A stretch of 64,000 nt of DNA from a virus. Position numbers and translations under genes: made by a program. Below the pieces are notes generated by a model, which saw only the letters and a program-made list of their open reading frames with translations, did no database searches and had not been told where the DNA came from. This document shows positions 52,866-56,397 of this stretch, piece after piece (positions within the stretch are counted from its first letter, which is position 1; every line of letters begins with the position of its first letter). The stretch is from the IMG/VR virus record IMGVR_UViG_3300017992_000021, positions 13,060 to 77,059 of that record; one strand, 5' to 3'.

Positions 52866-52940
52866 TGGATGCGGCGGAAGGACTCGAACCTTCGACGGGA
52901 GGATCAAAACCTCCTGTGTTACCGATTACACCACGCCGCA
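52866..52940 (-). tRNA. tRNA-Gln(TTG)
   Basis: TGCGGCG/CGCCGCA acceptor, GGAGG-TTTTGAT-CCTCC anticodon arm, GAAGG-TTCGAGT-CCTTC T-arm, encoded CCA. Confidence 0.96.
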
Positions 52941-53046
52941 GCCGTGGTATCAGAAATGTCAAAAAGCGACCCCAAAAGAGACCGCCAGTACGCTAGCAAA
53001 AAAGTATCTAGGGATTTTGGGAAACTTTTTCATTTTTGTCAAGGCT

Positions 53047-53220
53047 TTTCCGTGGTTGGACGCTAGCCGACTCCATCACAGGTTCGAGCTACCTTCAGGC
53101 GCACGCAGCCCTTTTTACGGTCCGTGAGCCTAAAACGGCGTGGCAATCGCCGACGTGCTTTGCTGTCCGCCCACGGACACGGAGCCGGTAGCTGGGTCTT
53201 GCCATGACCCCCAACCGAAA
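53047..53220 (-). ncRNA. uncharacterised highly structured RNA with kissing loop and pseudoknots
   Basis: Helices GGTTGG/CCAACC, GGGTC/GACCC, AGCTACC/GGTAGCT, GTCCGTGGGC/GCTCACGGAC, CGGCG/CGCCG; complementary loops TGGCAA and TTGCCA. Confidence 0.7.
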
Positions 53221-53227
53221 AATAAAC

Positions 53228-53323
53228 AGGGCGTGAGCAGGAATCGAACCTGCGGGTAGGCATATCCGGAATACAGCCCACAGCCATCTTTCAGGCCGCG
53301 TTTACCACTTCGCCATCACTCCC
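53228..53323 (-). ncRNA. class-II tRNA-like RNA with aberrant anticodon arm and very long variable arm
   Basis: D-arm GCGAAGTGGTAAACGC, T-arm GCAGG-TTCGATT-CCTGC, acceptor GGAGTGA/TCACGCC; no CCA. Confidence 0.8.
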
Positions 53324-53335
53324 TGCCAAAGAGCA

Positions 53336-53401
53336 AGCCTCATCGTCCCTTGTGGAGAAAGCGCGCCATCTTTATCAGGCAAACCATTTTACGACGAGGC
53401 T
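53336..53401 (-). ncRNA. hairpin RNA carrying a GCCTGA...GATGGC motif
   Basis: 11-bp closing stem AGCCTCGTCGT/ACGATGAGGCT; internal GCC-TGATAAAGAT-GGC. Confidence 0.6.
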
Positions 53402-53405
53402 AATT

Positions 53406-53475
53406 TGGTGGAGGCGGAGGGAGTTGCACCCTCGTCTTCGACACCACTATGTGTCGAGCGTTCCTACGCGCCCCC
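53406..53475 (-). ncRNA. minimal tmRNA-like RNA (tRNA-like domain only)
   Basis: GGGGGCG/CGCCTCC-A-CCA with G3:U70, stemless D-loop, GAC-GAGGG-TGCAACT-CCCTC; 7-bp hairpin in place of the mRNA-like domain. Confidence 0.8.
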
Positions 53476-53560: not shown

Positions 53561-53637
53561 TGGTAGCGGGGGGTGGATTCGAACCATCGACCTTCAGGTT
53601 ATGAGCCTGACAAGCTGACCAACTGCTCTACCCCGCA
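53561..53637 (-). tRNA. initiator-type tRNA-fMet(CAT)
   Basis: U1xU72 mismatch, GCGGGG/CCCCGC, TCAGG-CTCATAA-CCTGA, TTCGAAT T-loop, A73-CCA. Confidence 0.93.
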
Positions 53638-55389: not shown

Positions 55390-55853
55390 TATTCAATGAC
55401 CCCGTAGTGGCGCATTACCCTATCAAAATCTGACGCCTTGATTCTCGCCCGGCGCACGCACACATCCCGCAACTGCTTGTACCCAGTAGGACCAAGCTCC
55501 TTAAGACGCTGAACCGCACCAATCCCGAACATAAAACATTCAAGACGGTCAACGGGTTTGATTTCGCTAATTTTGTAACGACGGCCTACGTATATCTGCT
55601 CAGCACCCACTATAACTTTCCGAGCATAAGCGAGTCCTCTCCGACGCGTAGGCGGCACTGAGGGTGTGCAACAACCGCTACCCCACCAGTCCAGATCGCA
55701 ACTGTTCAGAATTTCACACACGAGGTACTCACGCGGCTTACCGGGCACTCGGTTACTCTCGCACTCCGGCCCGATCCAGTACCGCAGATTAGGCGTTACA
55801 TAGAGCAGCCCGTGTTGAATACAGATGATTTCAGGCTTTTTGGTCTTCGCCAT
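55389..55853 (-). CDS. Cys-rich hypothetical protein
   Basis: ATG after RBS GGAGAGG. Confidence 0.55.
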   Translation of the reverse strand: MAKTKKPEIICIQHGLLYVTPNLRYWIGPECESNRVPGKPREYLVCEILNSCDLDWWGSGCCTPSVPPTRRRGLAYARKVIVGAEQIYVGRRYKISEIKPVDRLECFMFGIGAVQRLKELGPTGYKQLRDVCVRRARIKASDFDRVMRHYGVIE

Positions 55854-56397
55854 TTTCCTCTCCGATGAATTCACCGTAGTCGGTGATTAGTTTACCGTCT
55901 AAGTGATCGATCTCGTGCTGAAGACAACGTGCGGCTAAGCCGAAGAACGTTTCTTCCTTCAGCACGCCCTTGCGATTTGAATATTTCACACGTATCCGCA
56001 TCGGACGGCTGATCATGACTTTGTTCTTGGCACCAAACGTCAGGCAGCCTTCAGCAGCCGGTTCCTCGTAGTCGATCGTCTCGATGATCACAGGGTTAAT
56101 CAGCGCGAGGCGCTGCGTGATGCACATGACAACTACCCGCTTGCTACAACCGACCTGTGGTGCGGCAAGACCGATGCCCTTGTGCTTGGACATCAACCAG
56201 TACATGTCATTGATGAGCACCTTGAGTGCATCATCGATGTACTTGACACGCTCGGCCTTCTTCTTCAGCACCGGGTGATCCGGCGCTACCAAGCTCGTCC
56301 ACTTCTTTGCTCGTCTGACCTTACCTTTACCCAACGTTCTTCCTTTCTTTTCTAGCCTTCTTGACTTTACGCTGCTCAGCATAATTAACCCTGACAT
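55831..56397 (-). CDS. def: peptide deformylase
   Basis: All three PDF motifs: GIGLAAPQVG, EGCL, QHEIDHLDG. Confidence 0.96.
   Translation of the reverse strand: MSGLIMLSSVKSRRLEKKGRTLGKGKVRRAKKWTSLVAPDHPVLKKKAERVKYIDDALKVLINDMYWLMSKHKGIGLAAPQVGCSKRVVVMCITQRLALINPVIIETIDYEEPAAEGCLTFGAKNKVMISRPMRIRVKYSNRKGVLKEETFFGLAARCLQHEIDHLDGKLITDYGEFIGEENGEDQKA

What the first reader, a model, noticed from the sequence alone, without database searches (positions are those of the whole stretch)
53406..53475. 70-nt mini-tmRNA: alanylatable tRNA-like domain with no mRNA-like domain
Seen: GGGGGCG CGTAGGAACG C TCGACAC ATAGTG GTGTCGA AG AC GAGGG TGCAACT CCCTC CGCCTCC A CCA. It has G3:U70 and A73 (AlaRS identity), a D-loop without a stem, GAC before the T-stem, and encoded CCA. 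Established: these are tmRNA TLD hallmarks (the SmpB-binding elbow). Bacterial and phage tmRNAs normally carry ~300 nt of pseudoknots and a tag ORF where this RNA has a 7-bp hairpin. MLD-less tmRNAs are known mainly from jakobid and oomycete mitochondria. Inference: it could sequester SmpB and block trans-translation, or add one Ala and release stalled chains without a degradation tag.
Basis: partly seen in the sequence, partly recalled or inferred. Interest (0 to 1): 0.88.

Follow-up and report, generated by a model that had tools for sequence, protein, structure and literature searches.

The report
Phage mini-tmRNA copied from host tmRNA
This 70-base phage gene is a cut-down copy of the bacterial ribosome-rescue RNA (tmRNA) that keeps only the alanine-accepting tRNA-like end; it is real, but one phage example has been in print since 2009 and this scan has met the type several times, so it is a new member of a known kind.

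Summary
It lies in a phage tRNA cluster and overlaps no ORF of 50 aa or more.

It derives from tmRNA, not from tRNA-Ala. Its last 31 nt and its 5' acceptor strand are identical to the ends of full-length tmRNAs in two Bacillota MAGs. These are the only 2 of 185,579 species genomes with an exact match. The tRNA-Ala genes of those MAGs differ.

Phages with 77% TerL identity carry a 124-nt RNA with the same frame and compensatory changes in all three helices. Dozens of unrelated viral contigs carry 67-91-nt versions whose helices covary.

The Rfam tmRNA score (35.7 bits) does not discriminate, because ordinary tRNA-Ala genes score 33-40.

The kind is already in print: mycobacteriophage DS6A 'TLD only' (Mao 2009; PMC4131195; PMC11915505). 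This scan has also found it before on other DNA.

The most likely role is a host-matched competitor for SmpB, AlaRS and EF-Tu that blunts SsrA tagging. That role is inferred, not shown. Interest is moderate to low.

The parts
53406..53475 (-). Whole mini-tmRNA gene (70 nt, tRNA-like domain only, encoded CCA)
   Evidence: My model R1 scores it 45.2 bits, E 2e-8.
53469..53475 (-). Acceptor stem, 5' strand (GGGGGCG), identical to the 5' end of the full-length tmRNAs of two Bacillota MAGs
53458..53468 (-). D-loop analogue, 11 nt (CGUAGGAACGC). It has the same GG-NN-CG spacing as the putative host tmRNA. C16-G17 correspond to E. coli C18-G19, which contact SmpB.
   Evidence: Sequence comparison; SmpB contact nucleotides from PMC8363625
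53438..53457 (-). P2-like hairpin: 7-bp stem (UCGACAC/GUGUCGA) capped by the 6-nt loop AUAGUG. It stands where about 300 nt of pseudoknots and tag ORF would be, and has no anticodon.
   Evidence: family helix covariation
53434..53437 (-). Connector AGAC (tmRNA 'GAC' before the T stem; the A corresponds to E. coli A334 of the SmpB Trp122 pocket)
53417..53433 (-). T arm: 5-bp stem and loop UGCAACU (G at position 55). It is 17/17 identical to the Bacillota tmRNAs and to the SsrA of Pelagibacter phage Mosig.
   Evidence: the position-55 statistic is
53406..53416 (-). Acceptor stem 3' strand (CGCCUCC), discriminator A73 and encoded CCA
53400..53405 (-). Six trailer bases (AAUUAG), also identical to the trailer of the tmRNA gene of MAG SLSY01000208. 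They extend the identity block to 37 nt.
53561..53637 (-). Context: tRNA-Met(CAU), same strand, 85 nt upstream; 84% identical to a tRNA gene of the same MAG
53229..53322 (-). Context: class-II-like tRNA-shaped gene, same strand, 83 nt downstream
52866..52940 (-). Context: tRNA-Gln(UUG), the last gene of the RNA cluster. In the 77% relatives the 124-nt counterpart lies directly upstream of this tRNA.

Best explanation
The element is a phage gene for a tmRNA reduced to its tRNA-like domain (TLD). It derives from the tmRNA of the phage's Bacillota-type host. What is shown: the fold, the alanine identity elements, the identity to genuine tmRNA termini, and conservation of the frame in related and unrelated phages. 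What is inferred: it is transcribed with the neighbouring tRNAs. RNase P and 3' trimming release it, and the CCA is already encoded. Host AlaRS charges it through G3:U70 and A73. Host SmpB binds its elbow, where the GG, C-G and GAC nucleotides are kept. Because its acceptor stem and T arm are letter-for-letter those of the host-type tmRNA, it competes with the resident tmRNA for SmpB, AlaRS and EF-Tu. With no resume codon or tag ORF it cannot complete trans-translation. The net effect would be less SsrA tagging and proteolysis, and altered ribosome rescue, during infection. My confidence in the identity (a tmRNA-derived TLD-only gene) is about 0.85-0.9. My confidence in the inhibitory, SmpB-titrating mechanism is about 0.45-0.5.
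For: (1) Anatomy and stability.
(2) An exact search for the last 28 nt over 185,579 species genomes hit only two Bacillota MAGs. In both, the match is the 3' end of a full-length tmRNA (Rfam 183 and 153 bits). Their 5' acceptor strand is the same as ours, and identity runs over 31 nt, or 37 nt with the trailer in one MAG. The tRNA-Ala genes of these MAGs have a different acceptor stem and T arm.
(3) The Rfam tRNA model gives only 24.5 bits, below its cut-off of 29. There is no 7-nt anticodon loop.
(4) G55 in the T loop: non-U55 occurs in 17 of 48 TLD-like hits but in only 1 of 51 tRNA-Ala hits of the same pattern scan.
(5) Phages with 77% TerL identity carry a 124-nt RNA of the same frame next to tRNA-Gln. 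Relative to ours it has changes on both sides of a pair in the acceptor stem (1), the T stem (2) and P2 (5 of 7 pairs, one of them opposite a gap in our row).
(6) Family level: 47 hits to my model R1 show 97.4% paired cells against 73.7% in shuffles. All 7 P2 pairs have changes on both sides, and no shuffle or slid control comes near.
(7) The published DS6A element fits the same model (55.8 bits) and, like ours, falls below the Rfam tmRNA cut-off (43.2 bits).
(8) Literature: a DS6A-like TLD molecule strongly inhibits tmRNA, perhaps by titrating SmpB (PMC4131195; PMC11915505, citing Mao 2009). Peptidyl transfer to a TLD-only tmRNA occurs in vitro (PMC3895274, citing Shimizu and Ueda 2006). SmpB contacts A15, U17, C18, G19 and A334 (PMC8363625), and equivalents of four of these five are present here.
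(9) The phage also encodes other translation-related genes: a peptide deformylase, tRNA-Met and tRNA-Gln.
Against: There is no expression, processing, charging or SmpB-binding data. The Rfam tmRNA score is below its cut-off and no better than that of tRNA-Ala genes. With R1 it is among the lowest-scoring members (45.2 bits, against up to 39.9 for tRNA-Ala-class hits). The D-loop differs from the family consensus (AACGC instead of UUUCGA) and could form a small stem that would hide the C-G. The more distant TerL relatives (49-64% identity) lack the element, so it is dispensable in the lineage. The benefit to a phage of blocking trans-translation is not established. The 37-nt identity block reaching into the trailer could reflect site-specific recombination rather than selection for mimicry.
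Confidence: 0.6

Rival explanations
1. Productive tag-free rescue. The charged mini-tmRNA with host SmpB enters stalled ribosomes and accepts the nascent chain, adding one alanine. The peptidyl-RNA is then released by drop-off and Pth, by ArfB, or by a second rescue event. Ribosomes stalled on damaged phage or host messages would be freed without marking the protein for degradation.
For: All the elements needed for charging and A-site entry are present. Peptidyl transfer to a TLD-only tmRNA occurs in vitro (PMC3895274). CDS-less tmRNAs are retained together with SmpB in some mitochondria, which argues that they do something useful there (PMC11915505).
Against: The phage record holds no GGQ-type release factor (ArfB-like) and no SmpB, so every later step would depend on the host. 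The one experiment in print reports inhibition whether or not the molecule can be charged (PMC4131195).
Confidence: 0.15
2. Recombination relic or attP core. The 37-nt block identical to the 3' end of a bacterial tmRNA gene is the crossover site of an element that integrates into that gene, or a leftover of imprecise excision. On this reading the RNA has no function of its own.
For: Identity to MAG SLSY01000208 is 100% over 37 nt and continues 6 nt past the CCA into the trailer, with sharp edges, while the 5' D-loop has diverged. tmRNA genes are common integration sites, and ssrA fragments are known in prophages (PMC9004378, PMC11915505).
Against: An attP needs only the 3' fragment. Here a matching 5' acceptor strand, a D-loop and a closing hairpin complete the fold. 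There is no tyrosine or serine recombinase in the 77-kb record, which is 82% complete. The relatives' 124-nt version keeps all helices through compensatory changes. The element sits inside a tRNA gene cluster. This rival is not exclusive: the block could serve recombination and still be part of a working RNA.
Confidence: 0.1
3. A generic tRNA-shaped RNA not aimed at trans-translation. It could be a degenerate tRNA-Ala, an RNase P processing signal that punctuates the transcript, or a decoy for a host factor or defence that recognises the tRNA acceptor and T arms.
For: It lies among tRNAs next to another tRNA-shaped gene with a defective anticodon arm. Its scores on tmRNA models are marginal.
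Against: Its acceptor stem and T arm match the tmRNA, not the tRNA-Ala, of the only genomes with an exact match. The D region is 11 nt long, against 12 in that tmRNA and 19 in a tRNA. It has G55 in the T loop. The SmpB-contact nucleotides are retained.
Confidence: 0.1

Closest known systems
'TLD only' tmRNA of Mycobacterium phage DS6A (tmRNA Website tmID 11587; Mao et al. 2009; Hudson, Lau and Williams 2014, PMC4131195; listed as 'Standard, no CDS' in PMC11915505)
   Same: It is phage-encoded and has the standard (non-permuted) gene order. It has a complete acceptor stem with G3:U70, a stem-less D-loop, a P2 helix and a T arm, and no tag ORF. It matches the Rfam tmRNA model end to end but below the cut-off (43.2 bits against our 35.7). 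Both fit my model R1 (55.8 and 45.2 bits).
   Different: DS6A is 83 nt long, has a second small hairpin inside P2 (AAAACC-type interior) and ends ACUA rather than with an encoded CCA. DS6A is temperate, with a tyrosine integrase. Our element is 70 nt with a bare 7-bp hairpin, encodes CCA, sits in a tRNA cluster, and its phage record shows no integrase. The hosts differ: Actinomycetota for DS6A, probably Bacillota here.
Full-length tmRNA (Rfam RF00023) of Bacillota MAGs SLSY01000208 (isolate CSSed165cm_82) and JADBKE010000015 (Ca. Fermentithermobacillaceae Bu31)
   Same: The 5' acceptor strand and the last 31 nt (GAC, T arm with loop UGCAACU, 3' acceptor strand, ACCA) are identical. The D-loop has the same GG-NN-CG spacing. 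One MAG also shares 6 trailer bases.
   Different: The bacterial RNAs are 351-352 nt long, with pseudoknots and a tag ORF. One of them reads an ADSNYNLAAA-type tag (my reading of the sequence). In ours all of that is replaced by a 6-nt loop.
CDS-less tmRNAs of organelles: jakobid and oomycete mitochondria (Rfam RF02544) and two ~65-bp plastid genes of Mallomonadaceae (PMC11915505)
   Same: They are tmRNAs reduced to roughly the TLD, with no tag reading frame.
   Different: Mitochondrial genes are mostly circularly permuted and two-piece. RF02544 finds nothing here. They have an organellar origin and co-occur with an imported SmpB; ours is a virus gene that must rely on the host's SmpB.
Engineered TLD-only tmRNA fragments used in biochemistry and crystallography (Shimizu and Ueda 2006; the truncated tmRNA in the ribosome-EF-Tu-SmpB crystal structure, cited in PMC3895274 and PMC8363625)
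   Same: The design is the same: TLD plus a short closing helix. These constructs bind SmpB and EF-Tu and accept peptidyl transfer.
   Different: They are laboratory constructs; ours is a natural gene, and none of these activities has been tested for it.

Membership tests
tmRNA (RF00023), tRNA-like domain | 7-bp acceptor stem with G3:U70, discriminator A73, 3' CCA | tested here: met
   Read directly from the sequence; in the family alignment G3:U70 is invariant in 44 of 44 distinct rows.
tmRNA (RF00023), tRNA-like domain | T arm of tmRNA type | tested here: met
   17/17 identical to the T arm of two full-length Bacillota tmRNAs and of the Mosig SsrA.
tmRNA (RF00023), tRNA-like domain | Short D-loop without a D stem, carrying GG and the C-G that contacts SmpB (E. 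coli C18-G19), plus GAC (A334) before the T stem | tested here: inconclusive
   The loop is 11 nt with the same GG-NN-CG spacing as the putative host tmRNA, and GAC is present (contact nucleotides from PMC8363625). However, the U17 equivalent is A, the last loop base is C rather than A, and the MFE fold draws a 4-bp mini stem over the C-G.
tmRNA (RF00023), whole molecule | mRNA-like domain with resume codon and tag ORF, and pseudoknots | tested here: not met
   Only a 7-bp stem and a 6-nt loop lie between the two TLD halves; 308 model positions are deleted in the Rfam alignment.
tmRNA (RF00023), whole molecule | Score at or above the Rfam gathering threshold (47 bits) | tested here: not met
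   It scores 35.7 bits. As a control, ordinary tRNA-Ala genes reach 33-40 bits, so this score alone says nothing.
TLD-only ('standard, no CDS') tmRNA, DS6A type | Closer to tmRNA than to tRNA | tested here: met
   The termini are identical to real tmRNAs, while the tRNA-Ala genes of the same genomes differ. Rfam tRNA scores 24.5 bits, below its cut-off of 29. It has G55 in the T loop.
TLD-only ('standard, no CDS') tmRNA, DS6A type | Fits a covariance model built from phage TLD-only RNAs, above the tRNA-Ala background | tested here: met
   R1 scores it 45.2 bits; DS6A scores 55.8 and the 124-nt relative 51.3; tRNA-Ala-class hits reach at most 39.9. The margin is small.
TLD-only ('standard, no CDS') tmRNA, DS6A type | Alanylation by AlaRS, SmpB binding, inhibition of resident tmRNA | not testable with these tools
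   Known only from the literature on a similar molecule (PMC4131195, PMC11915505, citing Mao 2009).
Canonical tRNA-Ala | D stem, 5-bp anticodon stem with a 7-nt loop and an NGC anticodon | tested here: not met
   ARAGORN makes no call; at a relaxed threshold it reports a 2-nt 'anticodon'. Rfam tRNA is below its cut-off.
Mitochondrial tmRNA (RF02544) | Match to the permuted mt-tmRNA model | tested here: not met
   No match at E <= 10.
attP core of a tmRNA-gene-integrating element | Identity block with the 3' end of a bacterial tmRNA gene | tested here: met
   37 nt at 100% identity with SLSY01000208, including 6 trailer bases.
attP core of a tmRNA-gene-integrating element | Integrase in the same element | tested here: not met
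   Neither PF00589 nor PF00239 matches in the 77-kb record. The record is estimated to be 82% complete, so this is not final.

The most novel reading that the evidence does not exclude
The mini-tmRNA may not be a mere sponge. It could be a working, host-matched, tag-free rescue factor: it adds one alanine and lets stalled ribosomes be recycled without condemning the protein. Its 37-nt block identical to the host tmRNA gene could also let the phage recombine with, or integrate at, that gene. If so, one 70-nt gene would serve as RNA effector, host-range marker and recombination site.
Probability: 0.12. Interest if true: 0.65.

Novelty: new member of a known kind. Interest (0 to 1): 0.35.

Why it matters
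Trans-translation is the main ribosome-rescue route in bacteria and a proposed antibiotic target. Natural TLD-only RNAs are ready-made competitors of tmRNA. This instance adds two useful points.

First, the phage copy is letter-for-letter identical to the acceptor stem and T arm of a specific bacterial tmRNA. That supports the idea of molecular mimicry tuned to the host's AlaRS, EF-Tu and SmpB. It also suggests that mini-tmRNAs can be used to predict hosts of uncultured phages; here the prediction is a Bacillota lineage known only from MAGs.

Second, within one phage lineage the interior shrinks from about 75 nt to a bare hairpin while the frame is kept by compensatory changes. The frame, not the interior, is therefore what is selected.

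There is also a practical warning. ARAGORN misses these genes, and the Rfam tmRNA model does not separate the weaker ones from tRNA-Ala.

Tried and rejected
- An exact 31-nt search of IMG/VR viral contigs found nothing.
- The Rfam mt-tmRNA model found nothing.
- I dropped the Rfam tmRNA bit score as evidence after the control showed tRNA-Ala genes score the same.
- The first MAFFT alignment (A1) staggered the 5' ends. I replaced it with a model-based alignment (A6).
- TerL relatives at 49-64% identity (L002/L126/L127, L128-L130) have no counterpart of the element.
- No cultured phage is close: TerL identity is at most 24%, so no host could be read from isolates.
- SmpB, tyrosine integrase, serine recombinase and a GGQ release-factor domain were all absent from the 77-kb record. 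The record is incomplete.
- Sequencing runs: no RNA holder was listed. Three DNA runs hold the stretch with no differences in the element, so population variation gives no information.
- Mao et al. 2009 is not held in the library. Its result is cited only through PMC4131195 and PMC11915505.
- Aligning our UCGAC with the conserved D-loop UUCGAC would need a 4-nt insertion and would leave only a 3-bp P2. I rejected it in favour of the gap-free GG-NN-CG alignment to the Bacillota tmRNA.
- The weak Tymovirus TLS and permuted-tmRNA matches (16 and 19 bits) rest on the shared T arm only.

Full report
WHAT IS THERE

The window is part of a 77-kb IMG/VR virus record. It is a tailed phage with a large terminase, portal and major head protein.

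On the minus strand, between the early genes and the packaging module, lies an ORF-poor RNA cluster. It holds tRNA-Met (53637-53561), the element (53475-53406), a class-II-like tRNA-shaped gene (53322-53229) and tRNA-Gln (52940-52866).

It has a 7-bp acceptor stem with G3:U70, an 11-nt D-loop, a perfect 7-bp hairpin with a 6-nt loop, AGAC, a 5-bp T stem with loop UGCAACU, then A73 and an encoded CCA.

It folds far better than shuffles (z -3.24, 0 of 200). Only ORFs of 46 aa or fewer overlap it. The same letters stand in contigs of three public DNA runs.

IS IT tmRNA-LIKE OR JUST AN ODD tRNA-Ala?

The Rfam tmRNA model aligns end to end with 308 positions deleted and gives 35.7 bits, below the cut-off of 47. 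Ordinary tRNA-Ala genes in other viral contigs and in bacterial MAGs give 33-40 bits on the same model. The mt-tmRNA model finds nothing. So I looked for independent discriminators.

- **tRNA model.** Rfam tRNA scores only 24.5 bits, below its cut-off of 29. ARAGORN sees no anticodon.
- **Exact match in genomes.** A scan of one genome per 185,579 prokaryotic species for the last 28 nt hit two records only, both Bacillota MAGs. In both, the match is the 3' end of a bona fide full-length tmRNA (Rfam 183 and 153 bits).
- **Shared termini.** Those tmRNAs also begin with the same seven bases as our element. Identity at the 3' side covers 31 nt (GAC, the whole T arm, the acceptor strand and ACCA). 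In MAG SLSY01000208 it covers six further trailer bases.
- **D-loop.** It aligns to those tmRNAs without a gap from the GG onward (GG-NN-CG). This keeps the equivalents of E. coli C18-G19 and A334, which the cryo-EM work names as SmpB contacts (PMC8363625).
- **tRNA-Ala of the same MAGs.** Their acceptor stem and T arm are different.
- **G55 in the T loop.** In my pattern scan, non-U55 occurs in 17 of 48 TLD-like sequences and in only 1 of 51 tRNA-Ala sequences.

Together these show that the element descends from a tmRNA of this Bacillota type, or has been kept identical to one. The phage tRNA-Met is also 84% identical to a gene of the same MAG, and the phage carries a bacterial-type peptide deformylase. 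A Bacillota host is the best guess.

RELATIVES AND FAMILY

Only a handful of related phages are on record.

- Two metagenome contigs with 77% TerL identity carry a 124-nt RNA directly upstream of their tRNA-Gln (L124:3573-3696). It has the same frame: acceptor with G3:U70, a D-loop with the textbook GGUAUCGAC, an 8-bp P2, CAC, a T arm with a UGCAAU loop, and ACCA. Rfam misses it; my model scores it 51.3 bits.
- Between it and our element, pairs are changed on both sides in the acceptor stem (1), the T stem (2) and P2 (5 of 7 pairs, one of them opposite a gap in our row). The frame is therefore kept by compensatory change while the interior shrinks from about 75 nt to a bare hairpin.
- More distant relatives (49-64% TerL identity) lack it.

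About half were plain tRNA-Ala. The other half were 67-91-nt sequences that ARAGORN does not call and that have the TLD-only layout.

I built a covariance model from 16 of them (R1). It retrieves 47 sequences at 44 bits or more, including the published DS6A element and ours. On that alignment 97.4% of cells pair, against 73.7% in shuffles. All seven P2 pairs and the two unconstrained T-stem pairs show changes on both sides, and slid controls collapse to 48-62%.

Two caveats apply. The alignment is fitted to the model, and acceptor pairs 5 and 6 were pre-filtered by me. P2 and the outer T-stem pairs were not.

WHAT IS KNOWN

The kind is in print. Hudson, Lau and Williams list mycobacteriophage DS6A as 'TLD only'. 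They state that a similar molecule, chargeable or not, strongly inhibits tmRNA, perhaps by titrating SmpB (PMC4131195, citing Mao et al. 2009). The 2025 tmRNA database counts nine 'Standard, no CDS' sequences, among them DS6A and two ~65-bp plastid genes (PMC11915505).

I located the DS6A element at JN698994:28478-28560. It behaves like ours in every test. Full-text searches found no paper describing a broad phage family of such RNAs. This scan has reported phage mini-tmRNAs on other DNA several times. So this is a new member of a known kind, not a new kind.

HOW IT PROBABLY WORKS (INFERENCE)

The element sits 85 nt after tRNA-Met and 83 nt before the next tRNA-shaped gene, on the same strand. 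A U-rich run follows that last gene, and the only good sigma-70-like promoter in the cluster lies further downstream, before tRNA-Gln. It is therefore probably cut from a tRNA-type precursor by RNase P and 3' trimming.

G3:U70 and A73 should make it an AlaRS substrate. The retained elbow nucleotides should allow SmpB binding, and the tRNA-like acceptor and T arms should allow EF-Tu binding. In vitro, a TLD-only tmRNA accepts the nascent chain (PMC3895274, citing Shimizu and Ueda 2006).

Without a resume codon the reaction cannot continue. The simplest outcome is competition with the resident tmRNA and loss of SsrA tagging, as reported for the DS6A-like molecule. That its termini are identical to a host-type tmRNA fits a mimic tuned to the host's enzymes.

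Three rivals remain: tag-free productive rescue; a recombination (attP-like) role or relic, suggested by the sharp 37-nt identity block but lacking an integrase; and a generic tRNA-shaped decoy or processing signal. None is excluded by computation alone.

VERDICT

The added value here is fourfold: the proof of tmRNA descent by exact identity to full-length tmRNAs, a host prediction, an intra-lineage size series (124 to 70 nt), and the warning that the standard Rfam and ARAGORN tests do not settle such cases.

Noticed in passing
window 53229-53322 (-): A tRNA-shaped gene (Rfam tRNA 35.9 bits) with a class-II-type D arm and a good T arm. It has only a 4-bp 'anticodon' stem with an 8-nt loop (UGAAAGAU), an ~11-bp variable-arm hairpin, an A3-G70 mismatch and no CCA. 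ARAGORN does not call it, and it probably cannot decode.
   Followed up: partly
L124:3573-3696 (+) and L125:3541-3664 (+): A 124-nt TLD-framed RNA in the 77% TerL relatives, directly upstream of tRNA-Gln. It has a 6-nt T loop (UGCAAU) and a ~75-nt hairpin-rich interior with no convincing tag ORF. Rfam tmRNA and ARAGORN both miss it.
   Followed up: partly
window 55831-56397 (-) and 53561-53637 (-): The phage encodes a peptide deformylase (Pfam PF01327, 133.9 bits) 2.4 kb upstream of the RNA cluster. Its tRNA-Met(CAU) has a U1-U72 mismatch at the top of the acceptor stem, an initiator-like trait. Together with the mini-tmRNA this looks like a small translation-takeover set.
   Followed up: no
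L126:1668-1772 (+) = L002:2668-2772 (+): The 64% TerL relatives carry a tRNA-like gene (Rfam tRNA 45.4 bits) with about 31 extra bases in the anticodon arm; ARAGORN reads it as a tRNA with an intron. They have no mini-tmRNA.
   Followed up: no
window 53043-53228 (-): The 186-nt spacer between the tRNA-shaped gene and the promoter-like site before tRNA-Gln folds somewhat better than shuffles (-76.6 kcal/mol, z -2.35, 1 of 200). It has no Rfam match and no counterpart in the relatives.
   Followed up: partly
Viral loci L027, L037/L080/L102, L048, L015/L029 (coordinates): Several hits of the Ala-acceptor pattern are neither plain tRNAs (ARAGORN makes no call) nor clear TLDs. They have a shortened D region but a loop containing UGC, as if they were D-arm-reduced tRNA-Ala. 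There may be a continuum between tRNA-Ala and TLD-only forms in phages.
   Followed up: no
Method note: G001-G005, G010, G011: Rfam RF00023 aligns ordinary tRNA-Ala genes end to end at 33-40 bits with very small per-genome E-values. Sub-threshold 'tmRNA' hits of tRNA size therefore need an independent test before being called mini-tmRNAs.
   Followed up: yes
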